Source of the DNA: Naegleria gruberi
Taxonomy: Eukaryota
Assembly (NCBI GenBank): GCA_000004985.1
Contig: GG738861.1
Direction: 5' to 3' (one strand)
Length of the DNA: 64,000 bases
Shown piece after piece: positions 24,479 through 44,889 of this stretch (within the stretch, counting starts at the first letter, position 1; every line of letters begins with the position of its first letter). The translations under genes were made by a program, and so were the position numbers. Under the pieces are notes generated by a model, which saw only the letters and a program-made list of their open reading frames with translations, did not search any database and had not been told where the DNA came from.

Positions 24479-25906
24479 TTACAAGTCTGTTTCTTGCTCA
24501 TCGTCTGAAAGTGTTGGAATGGGCTTGAGCTTTCTCCTTTTCCTTTCCAAAAGTTTTTCTCCATTGCTATAAGTTACTTCACCCATATATTTATCTGCTT
24601 TATCCATTAGTGTATCAATTTCATGCTTTTCAAAATCCAATTTTAAAAAGTTCCAAACTGGTATATCCTTAGAAGAGGAATCGTGAGATATTGGTAGTGA
24701 AACATAGATCAGTTGAACAGAGTGCCCATACTTTGAATAGGACAAGACATATTCTCGTAGTATTTCAGAGATTTTGAAATACATCAATGGTTTGTAAAAC
24801 AAGTCAGATTTCCTCGAAAGACCCAAAGCTCCAAATCTTCCCTTAAATCGAACAACACAAACTATATGTCTGTAAACTCTCTGGGTCATTGTTGTTTGAA
24901 AAAAGACACTAAACCTGTCAACATCTTCAAAATCTTGTGTACAAAAAAGGGAGAGAAAAGTACCCTCAACGCATCTAATTGGAAGGCAATCACTGACAAC
25001 TTCCTTTGCCGTCTGAATGATACTCTTCAAGGGTCTCAATCTTGTGATATCAAAAAAGTGTTGCTCTATATAGTTATACTCGAAAGCTGATATAAAATTC
25101 TGGATTTTCAATAATTTGGTGAACATGCTTTGGTTCTTGTCAGATAAATTTGGATATTTAGGCCTAGGAACCTCTGGAAGATCGGTATATGGATGATTTT
25201 GAAAAGGGTTTACAATCAATTCCTTATGAACTGTTAAATCTTGATTCGTCTCTTTGAACAATAACTTGATTAAATTCTCCTTAGATTTTCTTGGTGAAGC
25301 TAATTGATAACAATCATCGTCCTCCTCTTCCAGCATTGAAGTATGAGTCGGAGATACCTGATGAGTATTGAGCAGTGTTGGCCTCTGTTTAACTTGTTTT
25401 GTTGTTTTCCTAGATGTTGAGCTACTTGGGGTTGGAAGTGAGGAATTCAAATTCCTTTGAGAATTAAAATTTGATCTTGATCGTCTGTGGTTGGGAGAAA
25501 TTGGTTGATTCGTAACCATTACATCCAAAAATCGATGAGAAGTCGAATGGGATCTCTTTGAAAGAGCAGTAGAAACTAATTGCTGATCCGAAGAGTCATT
25601 CTTCTTAATTCTTTTTCTCTCCGGTGAAGATCCTCCAATTTTCGGAAGTAACCCATGGCATTCCTTACTCTTCTTTAAAGGGGAAGTAGAGCTTGAATTT
25701 CCTTGCTGATGATTTGTCTGCTGCACTTGTTGCGAATGATGAGGATCAGCTTGTTTTTGTTGATTAATACAATGCTGATGAGGATGTGGTGATGCTGATG
25801 CCAAACACTGTTGTATGGCCTTAACAGTCGAAGATCCCTCCGAAGAAAATCGATTCTGTTGGTGCTGCTGATGAACCTGCGAATTGGGTCGTAAGGTCTT
25901 TTGCAT
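24479..25906 (-). CDS. Vasohibin-like protein, a candidate tubulin tyrosine carboxypeptidase of the transglutaminase-like cysteine protease family, with a low-complexity S/Q/H-rich N-terminal half.
   Basis: The C-terminal ~200 aa aligns with the vasohibin catalytic core. IRCVEGTFLSLFCTQD matches vertebrate KCCEAVILGIYLTN around the catalytic Cys. RHIVCVVRFKGRFGALGLSRKSDLFYKPLMYFKISEILREYVLSYSKYGHSVQLIYVSLPISHD matches RHIVLGVNFAGRYGALGMSRREDLMYKPPAFRTLSELV...VSHD, covering the His and Ser region. Confidence 0.65.
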   Translation of the reverse strand: MQKTLRPNSQVHQQHQQNRFSSEGSSTVKAIQQCLASASPHPHQHCINQQKQADPHHSQQVQQTNHQQGNSSSTSPLKKSKECHGLLPKIGGSSPERKRIKKNDSSDQQLVSTALSKRSHSTSHRFLDVMVTNQPISPNHRRSRSNFNSQRNLNSSLPTPSSSTSRKTTKQVKQRPTLLNTHQVSPTHTSMLEEEDDDCYQLASPRKSKENLIKLLFKETNQDLTVHKELIVNPFQNHPYTDLPEVPRPKYPNLSDKNQSMFTKLLKIQNFISAFEYNYIEQHFFDITRLRPLKSIIQTAKEVVSDCLPIRCVEGTFLSLFCTQDFEDVDRFSVFFQTTMTQRVYRHIVCVVRFKGRFGALGLSRKSDLFYKPLMYFKISEILREYVLSYSKYGHSVQLIYVSLPISHDSSSKDIPVWNFLKLDFEKHEIDTLMDKADKYMGEVTYSNGEKLLERKRRKLKPIPTLSDDEQETDL

Positions 25907-28285: not shown

Positions 28286-29488
28286 ATGGAATCACAACCA
28301 AAGAAGAGGAAATTCAACAACTCTGAAAATGACTCTGTAAAAATAATACTCTCAGACAATGATCCTCCCAATGAAATGCACCTACCAATGATGAATCATC
28401 TCTTATCGGGATTGAAAAAACAATTACGAGGAAGTAAGGTAAAGAAATTTGTTACTGATTTCCTTCCGACCAATTCCATTCTCATTAGCGATCCAAATTT
28501 TAATTTTAATTATTGGAGTGTGATGATGATTGTTTATTGTTGTTCAATGGGGCAGCTATTTGTTGGAAAGGATGATTGTATTTATGTATTTAATTTGCAA
28601 AGTGGGTTGATGGAGAGGACTATTAGTTTAAATAGAGAAGATTTTGAAGAGTTTCGTTCGTTTCAGGTGGATGACGAAGGGGAGCATATTTATTTATTTC
28701 GTAAACATTTATTGACAAAGAAGAAACTTGACGATTCATTGACTCTGGTGTGGAATGTTGATATTGTAAGCCCCAATTCAAAATTAAGACATGAATATGA
28801 TATGTATTATTATAGATCAAAGAATGAAATTTACATGTACAGGCAAGATTTCAGGAATAATAGAATGGATATTCGAGTAATTAATGCCAAAGATGGATCG
28901 ATTAAGAGAAATATGACAATAGAATTCGATTCACGATTGTATTTTGTAGATGTAGCATCTAAATCCACAAAGATGTTTTGTGATGAAAAAGAAGAGCAAT
29001 TATATTTCGTTGTTAGAGTGGGACTTTTTGATAACGACGAAGTATCAGATGAGCACTGGATCGCTATCTGGGACGAAAAATCAAACAAAGTAAGCCTCAT
29101 TGAGATCGATTATGAAATTGATTTTATTGCAACTCCAGCTGATGCCACCTATTTCGTGTGTTATAGTGATATGATAGGATATGTCTATGACAAGAAAACG
29201 AACTCTTTACTAATTTCATTCCCTCCAATTTCAGATCCTATTTTGCATTTTGAAAACTGTTCTCAGACATTTTTTCTTTCAGATACGTCATCAGTACCTA
29301 ACTCAATTAGAGTAGAGAAATTGGAAATATCAACAAGTATTATCGATACTCCATTGAAGAATGAAACATGTAAGGAAATTGAGCGATTGGGTAAATTGCC
29401 ATTAATTATCCACCAAAATAAGAATGGAGAATTGCCAGATTGTGTGATCTATTTAACAAGTATTGAATTTGTAGATTGTAAATTATAG
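28286..29488 (+). CDS. Hypothetical 400-aa protein. It is in the same frame as the next ORF and separated from it only by a TAG codon.
   Basis: ATG start. No recognisable motif. The sequence is rich in aromatic and beta-strand-like segments. Confidence 0.35.
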   Translation: MESQPKKRKFNNSENDSVKIILSDNDPPNEMHLPMMNHLLSGLKKQLRGSKVKKFVTDFLPTNSILISDPNFNFNYWSVMMIVYCCSMGQLFVGKDDCIYVFNLQSGLMERTISLNREDFEEFRSFQVDDEGEHIYLFRKHLLTKKKLDDSLTLVWNVDIVSPNSKLRHEYDMYYYRSKNEIYMYRQDFRNNRMDIRVINAKDGSIKRNMTIEFDSRLYFVDVASKSTKMFCDEKEEQLYFVVRVGLFDNDEVSDEHWIAIWDEKSNKVSLIEIDYEIDFIATPADATYFVCYSDMIGYVYDKKTNSLLISFPPISDPILHFENCSQTFFLSDTSSVPNSIRVEKLEISTSIIDTPLKNETCKEIERLGKLPLIIHQNKNGELPDCVIYLTSIEFVDCKL

Positions 29489-29548
29489 TATACAGACAGT
29501 TCAACACCCAAGTATTTTTCTTTTGAAACACATGACACTGAGGAGGGG

Positions 29549-30106
29549 ATGATAGAAAAGTGGGTTGGTGAAAATGACATTATTGTGATTGGAGGTTTTG
29601 CTGGTCCTGAGCTTGATTATAACTGTTTTGCAGCATGTCTCTATGTAAAGAAATCAGAGGTATTCAGTGTGTCGGATGGAGATTTTCAAGTCCATCTTTG
29701 TGGTTCGCTTATTAAGGATAATAGCACCAAAGTTACAACCAAGACATTTACGCTCTCTGAATTATTATCGAAAGTGAAAGTAGTGGAATATGTTGAATTT
29801 GATGATGGAAATTTAATTTATTTGATTGATTTCGAACAGATTTATTTCGATTTGTTGCAAAACCAAATTATTAATCGAGAAACAAGAGAAATTGATCAGA
29901 AAATACTTGCAGAATCATATAGGGGGATTTATTGTGGATTTAATAAGAAATATGAACGTTTGGGAAAATATTTTAAATATTGGACGATTAAATTCGACAA
30001 TACCTGTTACAAAATGATAGATCTAATTGTATTGTCAGATTATTGCTCAAGGTATTGCTTTGTACATATTGACATTGAAGAGTGTGTGGAGAGTTATTAT
30101 ACTTAG
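29549..30106 (+). CDS. Hypothetical 185-aa protein. It may be the C-terminal part of the preceding gene.
   Basis: ATG at 29549. The 60 nt between the TAG at 29486-29488 and this ATG are open in the same frame as ORF 28286..29488. No domain recognised. Confidence 0.3.
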   Translation: MIEKWVGENDIIVIGGFAGPELDYNCFAACLYVKKSEVFSVSDGDFQVHLCGSLIKDNSTKVTTKTFTLSELLSKVKVVEYVEFDDGNLIYLIDFEQIYFDLLQNQIINRETREIDQKILAESYRGIYCGFNKKYERLGKYFKYWTIKFDNTCYKMIDLIVLSDYCSRYCFVHIDIEECVESYYT

Positions 30107-30328: not shown

Positions 30329-33300
30329 ATGCAACCATTCGAGCAATGTAAAATATTGGAGGTTTTTCTTCCTGATCCGATCAATCAATTCCTCACAAAG
30401 GAGAAGAAGAATAGTGATCGGGATGAAAAATTTGAATTATTACACGATCATGAATTATTACAAATAATTGAATATTATTTTGTAGTGAGTTTAAAGAGGG
30501 AGGATATTAAAAATCAATTGGAAACCAGTTTATTATCGACAATGATTTCATCTTTATCGGGTGGATCAGAAAATCAAACACAAAATATGGTGAAAATTTT
30601 GGAGAGTTTTGCTGCTGTCTCTCAATTCTTTTTGGAGATTATTAAGAAACAATATGATGGATATGCAGGTGTGGATACATCAGATATGTTACCTGAGGAG
30701 ATTCCACGTTTGATCAGATTGGCAAAATATCTTGAATTGAAAGATTGTAAAGAGTTTATTGCATTTTCATATATCTTTACTTGTCAATCAAGCAATTTAT
30801 TGGCAGAAGTGGTTTTGTCTAGATCATCGAAAAATAATTCTGGAATGAGTAATATAATGACTATTGCTACCATGTCTATAATTGCAGAGATGAGTACTCT
30901 TGAAACTTTGAGTTTTCTGAGTCCTAATAGAGAACACATCCAACAGGGAATTATTATCATTGACTCTGGTTTTAGAGATAGTCTTTCAGTTAATATTCTC
31001 AAAATGCCAAGAGAATGTATCAATGCACTGGTGAAGTGTCCATTAACTCCAGAGGAATTTCTCAAAATTGACAAGACTAAATTGGCAGATGTATTGCTTG
31101 AGGAAAGTACATTTGAATTACCAGGTATAAAATCAGTCACAAAACAAAAAGGTTTGGAGAGTAGTGAAGATGGGAATGAGGAAGATCTGGAGGATATTGA
31201 AATTGACGATGATGAAATTGAAAGAGAATTAGCTCTATTAGAAAATGGAAAGGAGGGTACAACAGATAATAATTTCAATGTTTATGAATTCATTCAAAAA
31301 GACAAATCAGATCCAAAGGCAATAGTTCCACCAAAGAAGCCTCTAACCTCAAATATTGAAGTCTCAAATTCTGAGGACTTTCTATCTCCTTACAAAAATG
31401 ATATAGAATATCTGGACGATAGATTTAAATATCTTTGCCAAAAAATCAGACTTAGAAATGTAGAACTAGATAAAATGTCTGAAGAAAATGAGGATGCAGG
31501 ATTTAAAATTACAAGAGATAGAAGTCATGAAAGTATTATAAGAGAATTGAAAGGAAAATGTCGTCTTCTCTTAAATAAGATTGAGAAGAGATCAGAACAA
31601 ACCAAGAATAACTTTATTCCAAGATTAGAAAAGTTGGCAGCCATTAGAGGACTGGATGAATTTGAAAAATGGATTTTGACAATGTCTGCAGCCACAATCA
31701 TATGTCTTGAGGTGACAATGGCAGCAAATGCCACCAATCACAGAGCAAACTTTTCAAGAGGATTTACTGTTGGCTATCTCCTTTGGATTTTATGTGATGA
31801 TTTGGAACAGAGAATGGCATGTCGTTCCTATTTCTACAAGAAGTCCAAATTGATTTTGGATGGTATGATTAGATTGAGTGACAAAATGAGTGATGATCTG
31901 ATGGAATGTTATGTAGATATGGACAGAAGAATGTTAGATTATTTATGCAATATGGACTTTGAATTTTCACAGGTTGTGGAAGGTTCTCATCTCTTCTTCC
32001 CCAAAGTGAAATTAGAAAATGTTGTTTTACCTGACTCTCAAAAATCATTAATTGTTGACACTGTTGCCAATTATGAAAGATTCAAAAAAGCCAGATTACA
32101 ATTAGGTTTTGAAGATATCATTTCGTACGGTAATTCAATTGTCATAATGTTCTACGGAGAATCTGGAACAGGAAAGACAATGATGGCAAATGCCTTAGCA
32201 AATCATCTCAACCAAAAACTGCTGCTTGTTAATTTTTCCAACATGACTGAACAGAAGGGAGAAGTTATGAAATACGTATTTAGAGAATCAAAGATTAATA
32301 ATGCCCTTCTCTTCTTTGATGAGTGTGAATCCTTTTTCGAATCTAGAAAACGATCAAACTCTGACGTTACAGCTCTACTCACAGAGATTGAAAAATTTGA
32401 TGGCTTGATTATATTGGCCACCAACAAACAATATGAATTGGATGAAGCCATGCATAGGAGAATCACATTGGCCATTGAGTTTAAAGCTCCTGATCCATTG
32501 TTGAGAAGGCAAATTTGGGAGAAGCACATACCTCCTCAAGCCAATTTCGCAAATGTAGATTGGGAAAGTCTTTCTCAAGATTTTGAACTCACTGGTGGCT
32601 TGATTAAGAATGCAATTTTGAGTGCTCTCACTTTTGCCATTTCAAGAGACTCTGAAAATCCTGTCATTACTCATAATGACCTCGTAAAAGCATGTCAATT
32701 ACAACTAAAGGGTCATCTCAAAATGGGAGAATTCGAAAAGAAGATTATTCCAAAAAGAGGACTACCAGATCTCATTCTTTCAGAGAGCTTGAAAAATCAA
32801 GTTAAGGAAGTTATTCAATTTGAAAAGTCTAGGAAAATTTTGTTCAATTTATGGGGATTTGACTCTTCTCTGTTTAAAAAGCAGGGTACAACTTGTTTAA
32901 TTGTTGGACATGGAACAGGAATTGGAAAATCACTTTGTGCTGAGGTTATTTCTTATGAAATTGGAAAGGCCATGAAAGTTGTTGATATTAATGAATTATT
33001 GACCAAATACAGCTTCCACACAACCAAGAATGTTGAAGCCCTCTTTAAAGAATGTAAAGAGCTCGATGCAATTCTTGTATTGGAAATGAGCACAGATGAT
33101 TCCTCAGGCAATCAATTTGACAAGTCAATCAAAATTTTATTGAATCACTTGGAACACTACGAAGGTGCTGTCATTGTCATTACATCCTCACTTACTTGCC
33201 TCGATAGTTCATTAATAAGAAGATTTAAATTTGTCTTGAACTTACCTTCGCCATCCCTCACTGAGAGAAAACAAATGTGGCAAAGACTCATTCCAGAAAA

Positions 33301-33526
33301 AGTGCCAAAGAACATTACCATGGAAGAATATGATGAATTGGCAGAACACTACTCTGAATTTTCTGGTGGAAATATTGAAAATTGCATCTTTAGGGCTTGT
33401 TCTAGAACTGCATTTTCCTCAAATCCAAATCTTTCTTTTAAATTGTTGAGAGAAAGTGCTGAGGAAGAATTGAAAAATTGTGGCTTGTTTATTAGTCAAG
33501 CAGCTAAATCATCTCTGTATTTTTAA
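30329..33526 (+). CDS. Tandem AAA+ ATPase of 1065 aa. It has a ~550-aa N-terminal region of unknown function, a canonical AAA module, and a second AAA-like module with a degenerate P-loop.
   Basis: AAA1 has Walker A IVIMFYGESGTGKTMMANALANHL and Walker B LLFFDECESFF. Sensor-1/SRH is ILATNKQYELDEAMHRRITLAIEF. AAA2 has TCLIVGHGTGIGKSLCAEVIS (GxxGxGKS with His in the GPP position) and ILVLEMSTDD. The C-terminus has ...LIRRFKFVLNLPSPSL.... An acidic EDGNEEDLEDIEIDDDEIERE tract lies in the N-terminal region. Confidence 0.75.
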   Translation: MQPFEQCKILEVFLPDPINQFLTKEKKNSDRDEKFELLHDHELLQIIEYYFVVSLKREDIKNQLETSLLSTMISSLSGGSENQTQNMVKILESFAAVSQFFLEIIKKQYDGYAGVDTSDMLPEEIPRLIRLAKYLELKDCKEFIAFSYIFTCQSSNLLAEVVLSRSSKNNSGMSNIMTIATMSIIAEMSTLETLSFLSPNREHIQQGIIIIDSGFRDSLSVNILKMPRECINALVKCPLTPEEFLKIDKTKLADVLLEESTFELPGIKSVTKQKGLESSEDGNEEDLEDIEIDDDEIERELALLENGKEGTTDNNFNVYEFIQKDKSDPKAIVPPKKPLTSNIEVSNSEDFLSPYKNDIEYLDDRFKYLCQKIRLRNVELDKMSEENEDAGFKITRDRSHESIIRELKGKCRLLLNKIEKRSEQTKNNFIPRLEKLAAIRGLDEFEKWILTMSAATIICLEVTMAANATNHRANFSRGFTVGYLLWILCDDLEQRMACRSYFYKKSKLILDGMIRLSDKMSDDLMECYVDMDRRMLDYLCNMDFEFSQVVEGSHLFFPKVKLENVVLPDSQKSLIVDTVANYERFKKARLQLGFEDIISYGNSIVIMFYGESGTGKTMMANALANHLNQKLLLVNFSNMTEQKGEVMKYVFRESKINNALLFFDECESFFESRKRSNSDVTALLTEIEKFDGLIILATNKQYELDEAMHRRITLAIEFKAPDPLLRRQIWEKHIPPQANFANVDWESLSQDFELTGGLIKNAILSALTFAISRDSENPVITHNDLVKACQLQLKGHLKMGEFEKKIIPKRGLPDLILSESLKNQVKEVIQFEKSRKILFNLWGFDSSLFKKQGTTCLIVGHGTGIGKSLCAEVISYEIGKAMKVVDINELLTKYSFHTTKNVEALFKECKELDAILVLEMSTDDSSGNQFDKSIKILLNHLEHYEGAVIVITSSLTCLDSSLIRRFKFVLNLPSPSLTERKQMWQRLIPEKVPKNITMEEYDELAEHYSEFSGGNIENCIFRACSRTAFSSNPNLSFKLLRESAEEELKNCGLFISQAAKSSLYF

Positions 33527-33949: not shown

Positions 33950-36113
33950 ATGATGACCAATCACACCAGCAAGAAGGATGAATCATCCATTGTGTTTAGT
34001 GGATTCCTTCAACAGAAAGAGGGAAGTTTATTTAATCGATGGAAAAAGTAAGTAATAGCATTGCATTGTTTTTAACATTGTTGACGAATTGATTGGACGA
34101 AATGTGTAATATAGATATTGGTTTGTGTTGACAAAAGATGGAAAATTATTCAAATTTAAAAAACAAACAGAAAAGTTTACTCTCAATTGGAATGATAGTT
34201 CTCATCAACCAATTCAAGAATACATTCTCTCTCCGAATGATGATGTGGAAAATCAAAAATGTGAAATTCAAAGTGCAAAGAATATTTGTGGAAAGAATTA
34301 TAGTATGGCATTGACACTCTTCAATGGCAAGACCAATAATTCAATTCTATTAATGTTAATTGCTGAAAATCAATTGGAATATGAAGAGTGGTTTAATGTA
34401 TTTTACAAAATGATTCATTCTTCGGAAAATTCAAATTCAAATTCTCAACAAGTTAATCAAGTTGATAAGGAATATGAACAAATGAATGGGTTATTGAATG
34501 CAATTTTGGATGCTGCTGTCATTTCTGATACTTTGGGAACTATGTTAGCTGTCAATGAATCCATGACAAGTGTTTTTGGATATACGAAAGAGGAAATGAT
34601 TGGACAAAATGTTAAAATACTAATGCCATCTCATTTGGCAAGAATACACGATGAATATTTGCAAAGATATCTGAGGAGAAGAGATAAGAGATTAATTGGA
34701 AAATCTAGAAATGTTTTGGGAAAGAAATCTAATGGTGTGACATTTCCAGTTGAGATTTCACTTGGAGAAATGTCAAATACCTCAATGGAATCTATGAAAC
34801 CAGCTTATATTGCTGTGTTTAGAAGCAAGACATTCGAATCTTCTTTGGAAGAAAAGGAGCCAACCATGCACAAGTCATGGACAGTAGCTGCATTCCAAGA
34901 TGAAGATGAAAAGTCAACCGATTCAGAATCCAGTCAATCCAGTCAATCAAATTCATCTTGTTCCAATATTGCAGATGATCATACCTATTTGGATTATGAC
35001 GATCCAGATGTGCCCTATCAGCATCATGTCCAACAAGATTCTTGGCTTAATCATAGAACTTCTCTCAACTTGCAATTCGGCCACTTGATGAATCAACATC
35101 CTCAACAGCAGCAGCAGCATTGGTATCATGCAGAGAATCATTCACCACTCTCTAGTAGCCCCTCTTCTAATACTTCCTCAACCAGTTCAGTAACAAGCAA
35201 TGAAGATGTCTCTGATCCATTCCACGTATCTGGCATGGCTAGTAGTAATATGATATTGAAGAATTTACAATTTTCTGACTTTTCCAATTATGAATTGCAA
35301 CAAAATTTGACTAGAATAAGACTGAATAAGAAGAGGATGAAACAACAGGGAGATCATTTGAAGAGTTTGATGGATGAAATTCTCAATAGTGAATTTTCCT
35401 CTCTTCGAGTGAAGCTCATGCTCATGAAACATCAAGTCCAAGTGTTGGAAGAGGAAAATCAAGTTTTACAAAAACAAATGGACAATCAATATGAAACTTT
35501 ATTGATGAAAGAGCTAGAGTCGGGAATTTTAGAGAATGGTAATCCAGACAGCTATTTTTGGAAGAAACTAATCAAGGATAAGAATGTGTTTGAAGAATTG
35601 AAACGAATTGCGAAAGAGGAAAGACAATTGAGTCTGATTCAATTCCTGAGCAGAAGCATCAAATATGAAGAAGTATTCTCCGTTCAAAATTCCTCCAAAG
35701 AAGAACAGAAAAGTGTTCAAAGATTTATGAGAAATGAAGCAGAGGCCATTTGTGAAAAATTCTTTGGTATAAAGCCAGTTATAGACAATCAAGAGGCAGA
35801 TCAACACCACTCAATGATGCACTCTCAGTCCATGTCCACCATTGATGAATCTGAAAATGGTGGCCACAACAGTGGTAATAACAAATCTCATTCATCACGC
35901 AAACAAAGCATCATTCCAATTGCTCGCATCATGCTCTCCTCCAAGTGTGAAGACATTCTCAAATCCCACCTCCTATTCCCAACTCCCCAAATGTTCGATA
36001 TGGCTAACAGGGAAATTACTGAGCGATTGAAAAAAAAGACCTTTCAACAATATCTCATCACGGCCAAACAGGACCAACTCCAGATGGACAATCTCATTGA
36101 TACAATCCTCTGA
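33950..36113 (+). CDS. PH-domain + PAS-domain protein with a C-terminal coiled coil. Two exons with an intron at about 34048..34114.
   Basis: Exon 1 encodes MMTNHTSKKDESSIVFSGFLQQKEGSLFNRWKK before a GTAAGT donor. Exon 2 continues YWFVLTKDGKLFKFKKQ...ENQLEYEEWFNVFYKMI, a PH fold. Then a PAS-like block follows: LNAILDAAVISDTLGTMLAVNESMTSVFGYTKEEMIGQNVKILMP...FPVEISL. After that come a poly-Q/His-rich linker, coiled coil, and a C-terminal conserved region. Confidence 0.65.
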
Positions 36114-42275: not shown

Positions 42276-44889
42276 TTACTTTTCTGTGGCCATATAGACT
42301 CCTGTCCAATTTTCAGGAGGCATTGGTAATTCACCACTCATATACATGCAACATCTTGACATCATTTCTTGAGATGGTCCATCATCTGGATACTCTTCAA
42401 GGAATATCTCAAATTCTTTTAGGGCTGTTTTAAAATCTCTCTTCCAATAATGGGTTTCTAGAATGGTTGCATAACGATCACACATTCTTTGTACTTCATC
42501 TCCAATTTCTAATCTTTGACCGACTGGAGAATAGATTCTTCTTCCAATTGCTTTTCCTTTAACAGCAACGCAGTCAATCAGTCTGCAAACAACTAATGTC
42601 TTTACCTTTTCATAACAAGTATCAGAGATAAGCATATTGGTTGAATAGAGCTTGTTAATTCCTTCTAATCTTGCAGCCAAATTCACAGTATCTCCAATGC
42701 AAGTGTATGAATATCTATAACTAGATCCAATATTTCCCACAAGGCAATCACCTAATTACATTTTGAAAGATTAGAACCACTAAATACTTACCAACACTTA
42801 TTCCAATTCTTGTATATAATTGAGGCAAGTTATGCTTGATAAATCTCTTGTTGAGAAGATTTAGCATTTTCTGAATATCAAGAGCTGACTTAACTGCCAA
42901 ATATTCATACTTTTCAATAGTATCTGGAGCATTGAATAGAACCATCAACGCATCACCTATTTTCAAATTATATTTAAATTATAGTATCTTAATAAACATA
43001 CCAATAAATTTGTCCAAAACTCCCTTATTTTTGTAAATGATGGTACAAGTCTTTTCAAAATAAATATTCAACATTTTGATAAGCACACCTGGTTCCAATT
43101 GTTCTGAAATAGTTGTAAATCCCTTAATATCACTGAAAAATATAGCCATTTTCTTGCTCCTTACACCTAGCTCAAAACTTGATTGATCCCCTTTCATAAA
43201 TGTGCTGACAATTTCCACTGGTACATATTTCATAAATCCCTTCATTACAGAGCTCATTCTTGAAAAGTGGTCCTGCAAAACAAAAACTTCATAAAATATA
43301 GAGTTTCTTCCTTGATCCTCAACCTTTTCCAAGTCCATATCTTGTTCTTGATCATTTCTATCAGATTCTGAAGCTCTAGAAGTAACTTCACTAATCAAAT
43401 CAGCGGTATCAATTTGAATATTTTGCAATTCCTCCATTTTCTTTCCCAGTTGTGTTAATGGACTGGTTACAAAATAAGAAATTATAATTCCCACCACCAA
43501 AGAAATAACTACCACCAAAGAATCTACTATTAACACAACATCTCTCAATGTATACACATTTCCCATGTAGTCGTCTATTGCAATGAAAATCATACACTTC
43601 CAATCCAAACCGTACTTGTCTTTAATGTCTACCACCTCTAATCTGTACTCTGCTCCATTGACGTAGAATTTTGTTAATGGAATTGAGACATTTACCAAAG
43701 AAGTTCCATATGTGTGAATCAATTCAGATCCAATCTTGGCAACAGTTGGGATACTACTTTCATTCAATCTCTTTTTTTGAATAAACCCTTCTGCCTCCAA
43801 ATCAAATATAAAAATTGTATCGTTCAATTTGGAAGTGGCAACAATAACCATATCCTTGCTTTGGACAACATAGATAAACGAGTTCTTACTAATTTCTAAA
43901 TTTTGATACAAAAATATAGAAACACTTGCAAGATCCATATCCACTGATATCAATACATTCATTTCAGGCTCCAGTGTTTTGGTGTACTTGTTTAAAACAA
44001 TATTACTTTCATTCTTGATTGGAAAATAGGAACTGACCCAATAAAAACCATCCTTATCACAATAGGCATCCCCCCATGTTATTTTACCTAGTATGTTTCC
44101 CTGCTTCCACCAATACAAATCGTCCAAGTGGTTCACATAATAATTGTCACAATAATCAACTGGATCAGGAACGACATCAGTCCTTGCATCAATACTAGTC
44201 ACCTCATAGGTTCCATTAACCCAACAACCATCTCGATAAACATCTATAGCTGGTAGCCCTCTATCAGACCAAAACAAGCCAATATAAAGGTCATCCTTTC
44301 TAGTATATGACACATATGAGACGTTATTCACCACAAATTGAGCAAAAAGTGTTGAATAAATCTTACTGTACTCGAACGGTACAATTTCCTCATTGTACAA
44401 ACTTCTTCCCACGCTCTCTGTAATTCTGAAAGGAGCTGCCATAAAATTGGAAATAAATTCTGATGCTGAAAATTTTAAATTAGAACCCATCACTTTGGTA
44501 AATTCCTCAATAGACTGTTGTTGTACAGAAAGTGTGATGGCAAAGATGGTGAGTGTTGAAATTAATGATAGCAAAACAATACTAAGGGAAAAGCAGCATT
44601 TGATGGAGAGAATCTTTTTCAAAGATTTTGCTACATCCCTATGATTATCATGAAGCTCCACTTTTACCTCTTCCTTATCAATCTTGGAATCGGCTGTTTT
44701 CAACACTTGATTTTTACTAGTAAATATTTCCTCAACAGAATCCCGCATATTCACTCCATGAGCCAAATGCCCTTGTGAATCCTCTTGACGAGTTCTCTGC
44801 CAGGAGGATCTTGAATTCGTTAAATTTTCCTTCCTTACAACTTCTAGAGATTCATTGGAGGGAGAGGGTGTAATTTTACTCATTCCCAT
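42276..44889 (-). CDS. Receptor-type class III adenylyl/guanylyl cyclase: TM helix, ~330-aa extracytoplasmic domain, TM helix, cyclase homology domain. Three exons at about 43002..44889, 42792..42956 and 42276..42751.
   Basis: TM1 is CCFSLSIVLLSLISTLTIFAITL. TM2 is VVLIVDSLVVVISLVVGIIISYFV. The cyclase domain is ...MAIFFSDIKGFTTISEQLEPGVLIKMLNIYFEKTCTIIYKNKGVLDKFIG then an intron, DALMVLFNAPD...YTRIGISVG then an intron, DCLVGNIGSSYRYSYTCIGDTVNLAARLEGINK.... The metal-binding D...D residues and the transition-state N/R are in context. Both introns run GTATGT or GTAAGT to AG and keep the conserved motifs contiguous. Confidence 0.8.

What the first reader, a model, noticed from the sequence alone, without database searches (positions are those of the whole stretch)
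30329..33526. Tandem AAA+ ATPase with a degenerate second P-loop and a large uncharacterised N-terminal domain
The first AAA module is canonical: GESGTGKT, DECE, and an SRH with two Arg. The second has GHGTGIGKS and EMSTDD. That suggests a nucleotide-binding but possibly hydrolysis-impaired D2, as seen in some type II AAA proteins. The ~550-aa N-terminal region, with its acidic tract, has no motif I can assign. The architecture does not obviously match the common eukaryotic AAA families (Cdc48, NSF, Pex1/6, katanin, proteasome Rpt). This could be a lineage-specific remodelling ATPase.
Basis: partly seen in the sequence, partly recalled or inferred. Interest (0 to 1): 0.5.

Follow-up and report, generated by a model that had tools for sequence, protein, structure and literature searches.

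The report
Protist relative of bacterial injection-system ATPase
This Naegleria gruberi gene encodes a two-ring AAA+ ATPase from an uncharacterised family found across many protist groups; its nearest characterised relatives are the bacterial ATPases (Afp15/Pvc15) that load cargo into phage-tail-like injection systems, so it is neither a lineage-specific oddity nor one of the textbook eukaryotic AAA families.

Summary
The organism is Naegleria gruberi.

The "unassignable" 550-aa N-terminus is two copies of Pfam PF22977 (variant winged-helix domain, WHD) joined by a disordered acidic linker. The architecture is WHD-WHD-D1-D2.

An exhaustive profile search finds about 90 full-length relatives. 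These include Willaertia, Euglena, diplonemids, kinetoplastids, Anaeramoeba, Phytophthora, Cercozoa, Foraminifera, Amoebozoa, Chlorokybus, Chlamydomonas and Thecamonas, at 31-51% identity over 900-1000 aa. The protein is therefore not lineage-specific.

Shorter bacterial relatives (WHD-D1-D2, about 700 aa) sit in contractile-injection-system (eCIS) operons. Serratia Afp15 itself carries PF22977 and aligns co-linearly with the Naegleria protein.

Ring polarity is inverted relative to Pvc15. D1 keeps all ATPase motifs in 88/88 family members, while D2 is degenerate in about two thirds. The one-residue insertion in the D2 P-loop (GHGTGIGKS) occurs only in N. gruberi (1/88).

The most likely function is a hexameric protein remodeller driven by D1, with a catalytically dead D2 ring and WHD client-binding modules. 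The client is unknown. I found no characterised eukaryotic member.

The parts
30329..33526 (+). Complete intron-less coding sequence, 1065 aa plus TAA stop
   Evidence: It is 100% identical to N. gruberi P0001 and 61% identical to N. fowleri P0002 over the full length.
30365..30394 (+). Conserved N-terminal motif FLPDPINQFL (aa 13-22), upstream of the start of the deposited gene model
   Evidence: Shared with N. fowleri (FLPKQISDFL), P0039 and P0040.
30434..31114 (+). WHD-a (aa 36-262): a diverged first copy of the PF22977 module, made of a long helical hairpin plus a winged helix
   Evidence: hhalign of aa 36-245 against aa 354-550 gives probability 95.3% and E=2.1e-8. Orthologs P0004 and P0040 pass the Pfam threshold in this region (30.3 and 36.9 bits; cutoff 27). 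The predicted secondary-structure elements follow the same order as in WHD-b. pI is 4.9.
31115..31375 (+). Acidic, disordered linker (aa 263-349)
   Evidence: pLDDT is below 50 across 267-349 in both models. pI is 4.2.
31274..31294 (+). Short conserved motif FNVYEFI (aa 316-322) inside the linker, predicted to be helical
   Evidence: The pattern F[DN][VL][YF]x[FY][ILM] is conserved in N. fowleri, Willaertia, P0003, P0006, P0208, P0056 and P0045. A helix is predicted at 318-325.
31376..31987 (+). WHD-b (aa 350-553): Pfam PF22977, variant winged-helix domain
31988..32734 (+). AAA+ module D1 (aa 554-802), the predicted active ATPase. Walker A is at 32156-32179, Walker B DE at 32306-32329, sensor 1 at 32411-32425 and the Arg fingers at 32447-32467. 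The aligned pore-loop-1 segment (32240-32266) has no aromatic residue.
   Evidence: Across 88 family members the counts are Walker A 88, DE 88, sensor 1 87, RR 86 and canonical aromatic pore loop 0.
32735..33523 (+). AAA+ module D2 (aa 803-1065), degenerate. The P-loop GHGTGIGKS with a one-residue insertion is at 32906-32932. The retained Tyr pore loop TKYSF is at 33002-33016. Walker B LVLEMS, with no catalytic Glu, is at 33071-33100. Sensor 1 is lost (ITSS, 33170-33190). The RR is retained (33209-33232).
   Evidence: D2 aligns co-linearly with the active D2 of Afp15.

Best explanation
**Shown**
- The gene encodes a tandem classical AAA+ ATPase with the architecture WHD-WHD-D1-D2.
- It belongs to an unnamed family spread across many protist lineages.
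- It is homologous and co-linear with the bacterial Afp15/Pvc15 ATPases of extracellular contractile injection systems (eCIS).

**Inferred mechanism**
- It assembles as a double-ring hexamer.
- D1 is the only hydrolytic ring. All its ATPase motifs are invariant across the family, yet it lacks a canonical aromatic pore loop.
- D2 is catalytically dead: the Walker B Glu is replaced by Met, sensor 1 is lost, and in N. gruberi the P-loop is also distorted by an insertion.
- D2 keeps a Tyr pore loop and an Arg pair. It probably serves as a scaffold and substrate-contacting ring.
- The two acidic winged-helix modules, and a conserved short motif in the acidic linker, recruit a client or adaptor.
- D1 hydrolysis then remodels or unfolds that client.
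- The client is unknown. Naegleria has no injection-system genes next to this gene.
For: **Domain calls**
- PF22977 E=2e-58, and AAA with two stretches.
- the second WHD copy.

**Family breadth**
- 946 cluster representatives at E<=1e-3 and 180 at E<=1e-30.
- named eukaryotic members, many on contigs of 0.1-2.3 Mb.
- 31-51% identity over 900-1000 aa.
- a GT..AG intron inside the D1 Walker A codons of one ortholog.
- in an NJ tree, Heterolobosea group with Euglenozoa, and Acanthamoeba groups with Flabellula. This follows the species phylogeny.

**Link to eCIS ATPases**
- short-form relatives P0014, P0007, P0013 and P0212 lie in operons with sheath, gp19 tube, eCIS_core, gp25, Baseplate_J and Pvc16_N genes.
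-:
  - Serratia entomophila Afp15 lies between the tape-measure gene and a DUF4255 gene.
  - It carries PF22977 (72 bits).
  - It aligns with Ng 605-1052 co-linearly (E=1e-33).
  - Ng D1 is 36% identical to Afp15 D2.
- both Ng AAA modules score higher against eCIS D2 (95-134 bits) than against Cdc48 modules (0-66 bits).

**Ring roles**
- the motif census.
- PMC11495950: Pvc15 has a winged-helix-like N domain, a degenerate D1, and D2 as its sole active ATPase. It loads and stabilises signal-peptide-tagged cargo.

**Fold**
- the tandem-AAA fold matches p97 and Rix7.
- the N-region matches winged-helix domains.
Against: - No biochemical, localisation or expression data exist for any eukaryotic member that I could find.
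- Hexamer formation, nucleotide binding by D2 and substrate threading are inferred from motifs only.
- D1 lacks the aromatic pore loop usually needed for threading, so a non-threading mode such as disassembly or a conformational switch is equally possible.
- The eCIS analogy may not carry over. No eCIS genes lie in the window, and at least one bacterial short form lies outside any eCIS operon.
- The NJ tree has no support values.
Confidence: 0.6

Rival explanations
1. It is a divergent ortholog of a known eukaryotic type II AAA protein: Cdc48/p97, NSF, Pex1/6, Rix7/NVL, Afg2/SPATA5, or an ATAD or Yta family member.
For: The best PDB sequence and fold matches are Cdc48, Afg2, p97 and Rix7.
Against: - The matches cover only the AAA cores, at E about 1e-16 and about 19% identity.
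- The NCBIfam CDC48 model scores 49.8 bits against a cutoff of 802.
- The N-terminus is two winged-helix modules, not a Cdc48-type N domain.
- Both AAA modules are closer to eCIS and IetA-type modules than to Cdc48.
Confidence: 0.03
2. It is a recent bacterial transfer or a contaminant: a genuine eCIS ATPase working with an injection system.
For: It is homologous to Afp15-type proteins.
Against: - GC content is 32-34%, like the rest of the window.
- The flanking genes are ordinary eukaryotic ones: AMP deaminase, vasohibin, FYVE, PAS, PH and LRR proteins.
- Orthologs lie on large N. fowleri and Willaertia contigs.
- The tree groups Heterolobosea with Euglenozoa.
- The architecture differs from Afp15: an extra WHD and inverted ring polarity.
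Confidence: 0.03
3. It is a nucleic-acid-directed remodeller. The winged-helix modules bind DNA or RNA, and the ATPase acts on nucleoprotein complexes.
Against: - Both WHDs are acidic, with pI 4.9 and 5.9.
- The characterised relative, Pvc15, acts on protein cargo.
Confidence: 0.12
4. It is the unfoldase half of a proteolytic or defence-type module, analogous to IetA-IetS or FtsH/Lon, and feeds clients to a partner protease.
For: - The best NCBIfam and PADLOC matches for the AAA modules are IteA/IetA (117 and 130 bits).
- One family member, P0127, carries C-terminal Met-zincin domains DUF5117 and DUF4953.
Against: - The IetA scores are far below the family cutoff (510) and cover only the AAA core.
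- The protease fusion is seen once and could be a gene-model artefact.
- No protease gene lies next to the Naegleria gene.
Confidence: 0.1

Closest known systems
Afp15 / Pvc15, the AAA+ ATPases of extracellular contractile injection systems (Serratia Afp, Photorhabdus PVC)
   Same: - Both have an N-terminal PF22977 winged-helix domain followed by two classical AAA modules, in the same order.
- Family members with an intact D2 share the D2 signature: SKW/YVGET pore loop, FDEAD, DRYAN.
   Different: - The Naegleria protein has a second WHD and an acidic linker.
- D1 is the conserved active ring and D2 the degenerate one, the reverse of Pvc15 (PMC11495950).
- It is not encoded in an injection-system operon.
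- It is eukaryotic and about 370 aa longer.
Eukaryotic type II AAA proteins with one inactive ring (NSF; Pex1/Pex6; p97/Cdc48)
   Same: - The tandem AAA fold.
- The division of labour between an active ring and a structural ring. For NSF and p97 this is as summarised in PMC11495950; for Pex1/Pex6 it rests on my own general knowledge.
   Different: - No orthology.
- A different N domain.
- The active ring here lacks the aromatic pore loop that those motors use.
IetA (IteA), the ATPase of the IetAS anti-phage system
   Same: It is the best-scoring curated model for the AAA modules.
   Different: - IetA is a single-AAA protein of about 370 aa.
- The score is 117 bits against a cutoff of 510.
- I found no evidence of a PF22977 domain in IetA.
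- Its context is bacterial defence.

Membership tests
Afp15/Pvc15-type eCIS ATPase | N-terminal PF22977 winged-helix domain | tested here: met
   The Ng protein scores 197.8 bits. Serratia Afp15 scores 72.1 bits. The cutoff is 27.
Afp15/Pvc15-type eCIS ATPase | Two co-linear classical AAA modules after the WHD | tested here: met
   Ng 605-1052 aligns with Afp15 244-692 at E=1e-33.
Afp15/Pvc15-type eCIS ATPase | D1 degenerate and D2 the sole active ATPase (PMC11495950) | tested here: not met
   The polarity is reversed. D1 has GESGTGKT, DE, ATN and RR. D2 has LVLEM, no sensor 1 and a P-loop insertion.
Afp15/Pvc15-type eCIS ATPase | Encoded within an operon with sheath, tube, baseplate and Pvc16 genes | tested here: not met
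   The neighbours are AMP deaminase, vasohibin, FYVE, PAS, PH and LRR genes. Only this 64-kb window was examined, not the whole genome.
Afp15/Pvc15-type eCIS ATPase | Loads or stabilises cargo tagged with an N-terminal signal peptide | not testable with these tools
   This needs biochemistry.
Unnamed protist WHD-WHD-AAA-AAA family | Two PF22977-type modules separated by an acidic linker | tested here: met
Unnamed protist WHD-WHD-AAA-AAA family | Invariant D1 signature (GxxGxGKT, FFDE, ATN, RRI) without an aromatic pore loop | tested here: met
   Found in 86 to 88 of 88 members, including Ng.
Unnamed protist WHD-WHD-AAA-AAA family | Full-length co-linear similarity to members from other eukaryotic supergroups | tested here: met
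   31-51% identity over 900-1000 aa to Willaertia, Euglena, Flabellula, Nonionella, Trypanosoma, Phytophthora and others.
Cdc48/NSF/Pex1-6/Rix7/Afg2 type II AAA | Family-specific N domain (double-psi barrel type) and orthology-level sequence score | tested here: not met
   There is no Pfam N-domain hit. The CDC48 model scores 49.8 bits against a cutoff of 802. The N-region fold is winged helix.
IetA/IteA anti-phage ATPase | NCBIfam NF042959 score above the curated cutoff | tested here: not met
   116.7 bits against a cutoff of 510.

The most novel reading that the evidence does not exclude
This gene represents an overlooked, ancient (possibly LECA-age) family of eukaryotic type II AAA+ proteins. 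The family shares ancestry with the cargo-loading ATPase of bacterial contractile injection systems. It has been lost from animals, fungi and land plants. It still works as a signal-directed unfoldase or loader for some as yet unidentified eukaryotic assembly, with ring polarity inverted relative to its bacterial cousins.
Probability: 0.3. Interest if true: 0.6.

Novelty: new variant of a known kind. Interest (0 to 1): 0.45.

Why it matters
- **A gap in the eukaryotic AAA+ catalogue.** Classical AAA+ families in eukaryotes are generally treated as fully catalogued. A further tandem-AAA family appears here in Discoba, Metamonada, SAR, Amoebozoa, green algae and apusomonads, including the pathogens Naegleria fowleri, trypanosomatids and Phytophthora. 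It was not seen in animals, fungi or land plants among the sequences I could name. That makes it an unstudied piece of protist cell biology.
- **A handle on function.** Homology to Afp15/Pvc15 gives a concrete, testable starting hypothesis: recognition of a client tag by the WHDs, followed by remodelling. It also offers eCIS researchers a natural experiment in which the active and inactive rings are swapped.
- **Limit.** For this single gene, nothing points to a new mechanism class.

Tried and rejected
- **Word-indexed protein searches** returned only 8-19 relatives and suggested a tiny family. The exhaustive HMM search showed that was a sensitivity artefact.
- **GTDB genome scan** with two peptide patterns.
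  - It found only two short-form bacterial loci and no long form.
  - It cannot settle whether long forms exist in prokaryotes.
- **Origin of metagenome contigs** carrying P0004, P0005 and P0050. Neighbour genes gave no decisive bacterial or eukaryotic signal. The small genes downstream of P0004 and P0005 are unrelated to each other.
- **AFDB Foldseek library** was unavailable.
- **Literature searches** for PF22977, locus tags, accessions and the assembly GCA_037189345 found nothing. No Pvc15 structure paper turned up.
- **Rejected readings:** Cdc48/NSF/Pex orthology, contamination, and DNA binding by the acidic WHDs. See the rival explanations.
Full report
**What is there**

The window has about 34% GC. 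It holds one uninterrupted ORF at 30329..33526 on the + strand, encoding 1065 aa. The protein is 100% identical to a Naegleria gruberi 'predicted protein' on a 507-kb scaffold. It is 61% identical, end to end, to an N. fowleri protein.

The deposited N. gruberi model begins at Met72 of this ORF. The upstream 71 codons are conserved in N. fowleri and in P0039, including the motif FLPxxIxxFL. The ORF start is therefore the better one.

Neighbouring genes are ordinary eukaryotic ones: AMP deaminase, vasohibin, FYVE, PAS, PH and LRR proteins, and a cyclase fragment.

**Anatomy**

Pfam assigns aa 347-553 to PF22977, 'winged helix domain, variant' (E=2.4e-58). It assigns two stretches to PF00004 AAA.

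Three results support this:
- Profile-profile alignment of aa 36-245 against aa 354-550 gives 95% probability and E=2e-8 over 188 columns.
- The equivalent region of orthologs P0004 and P0040 passes the Pfam threshold for PF22977.
- The AlphaFold models give both halves the same order of elements: a long helical hairpin, then a helical bundle with a beta-hairpin wing.

The two copies are joined by an acidic linker of 87 residues. It has pI 4.2 and pLDDT below 50. It contains a short conserved motif, FNVYEFI.

The C-terminal half folds as a tandem AAA unit. It matches p97 and Rix7 at about 19% identity.

**Relatives**

Word-indexed searches suggested a tiny family. An exhaustive profile search with the N-terminal region found 946 cluster representatives at E<=1e-3 and 180 at E<=1e-30. 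About 87 of the listed hits are at least 900 aa long and have two P-loops about 250 residues apart.

Named members come from the following taxa:
- Heterolobosea: Willaertia
- Euglenozoa: Euglena longa, Lacrimia, Bodo, Trypanosoma theileri, Phytomonas
- Metamonada: Anaeramoeba
- SAR: Phytophthora, a cercozoan MAG, Nonionella
- Amoebozoa: Flabellula, Acanthamoeba
- Green lineage: Chlorokybus, Chlamydomonas incerta
- Others: Thecamonas, and an EukProt entry labelled 'Opistho-2'

Many of these lie on contigs of 0.1-2.3 Mb. One ortholog has a GT..AG intron inside the D1 Walker A codons. Another sits beside a histone gene.

The Naegleria protein aligns with these at 31-51% identity over 900-1000 residues.

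In an NJ tree of WHD-b+D1, Heterolobosea group with Euglenozoa, and Acanthamoeba groups with Flabellula. This is what vertical descent would predict (no support values). The protein is therefore not lineage-specific.

**Bacterial cousins**

Proteins of about 700 aa carrying PF22977 plus AAA are the more distant hits. Four that I examined lie in operons with sheath, gp19 tube, eCIS_core, gp25, Baseplate_J and Pvc16_N genes. One of them is itself fused to Pvc16_N.

On a Serratia entomophila plasmid, the AAA ATPase gene lies between the tape-measure gene and a DUF4255 gene. That position corresponds to Afp15 in the Afp gene order tabulated in PMC6899500. This protein scores 72 bits on PF22977 and aligns co-linearly with Ng 605-1052 at E=1e-33.

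Both Naegleria AAA modules score higher against eCIS D2 modules (95-134 bits) than against Cdc48 modules (0-66 bits).

One planctomycete short form lies outside any injection-system operon. The bacterial family is therefore not exclusively eCIS-linked.

Afp15 is a core eCIS component (PMC6899500). Pvc15 has a winged-helix-like N domain, a degenerate D1 and an active D2, and it loads and stabilises signal-peptide-tagged cargo (PMC11495950).

**The two rings**

The table gives motif counts across 88 aligned long forms.

| Motif | D1 | D2 |
|---|---|---|
| Walker A | 88 | 73 |
| Walker B DE | 88 | 35 |
| Sensor 1 | 87 | 30 |
| RR (Arg pair) | 86 | 41 |
| Canonical aromatic pore loop | 0 | 32 |
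| All five intact | not counted | 23 |

In Naegleria and Willaertia, the D2 Walker B is LVLE followed by Met or Cys. Sensor 1 is lost, but the Tyr pore loop (TKYSF) and the RR pair remain.

The N. gruberi D2 P-loop, GHGTGIGKS, carries a one-residue insertion found in no other member (1/88). N. fowleri has GPAGVGKS and Willaertia has GPSGSGKS.

The family thus has the opposite ring polarity to Pvc15.

**Most likely mechanism (inferred)**

- The protein forms a double-ring hexamer in which D1 supplies all ATP hydrolysis.
- D2 is a non-hydrolysing ring that stabilises the assembly and may contact the client through Tyr894.
- The acidic WHDs and the linker motif recruit the client or an adaptor.
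- The outcome is remodelling or unfolding of a protein client.
- Because D1 lacks an aromatic pore loop, a non-threading mode of action cannot be excluded.
- The client and the cellular role are unknown. I found no publication on any eukaryotic member.

**Verdict**

The protein is not one of the textbook eukaryotic AAA families, but it is neither unassignable nor lineage-specific. It belongs to an uncharacterised, widely distributed protist family that is a structural variant of the Afp15/Pvc15 type. Interest is moderate.

Noticed in passing
window 30329-30541: The deposited N. gruberi gene model (P0001, 994 aa) starts at Met72 of the ORF. The 71 upstream codons are conserved in N. fowleri and P0039, so the public model looks N-terminally truncated. 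The N. lovaniensis model (P0020, 354 aa) is a fragment.
   Followed up: partly
window 31274-31294: A short motif, F[DN][VL][YF]x[FY][ILM], is embedded in the disordered acidic linker. It is conserved in the heterolobosean-type subgroup and in the MMETSP sequence P0045. It may be a docking motif.
   Followed up: partly
P0127, P0209 and P0131 (family members): Domain fusions in relatives:
- P0127 (1892 aa) has C-terminal Met-zincin domains DUF5117 and DUF4953.
- The Acanthamoeba member has an N-terminal SAM domain.
- The Thecamonas member is 2531 aa, with about 1600 unassigned N-terminal residues.
   Followed up: partly
L007 5230-5370: The ortholog in assembly GCA_037189345.1 has a spliceosomal-type GT..AG intron interrupting the D1 Walker A codons. 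Prokaryote-style gene calling split it into two proteins of 728 and 438 aa.
   Followed up: partly
L009 9080-11038: A Planctomycetota MAG encodes a short-form PF22977+AAA protein (652 aa) outside any injection-system operon. It lies next to a 1270-aa Ser/Thr kinase, two DUF3352-like proteins, a GT4 glycosyltransferase and GAPDH.
   Followed up: no
window 24479-25906 (-): A 475-aa ORF has a strong vasohibin domain (PF14822, E=2e-50).
   Followed up: no
window 28286-30106 (+): Two ORFs immediately upstream of the AAA gene (400 aa and 185 aa) have no Pfam match at E<=0.001.
   Followed up: no
window 34125-36113 and 42979-44889: The downstream genes include a PAS-domain protein with long low-complexity tracts. 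There is also an ORF ending in the start of an adenylate/guanylate cyclase domain, which is probably an exon of a larger intron-containing gene.
   Followed up: no
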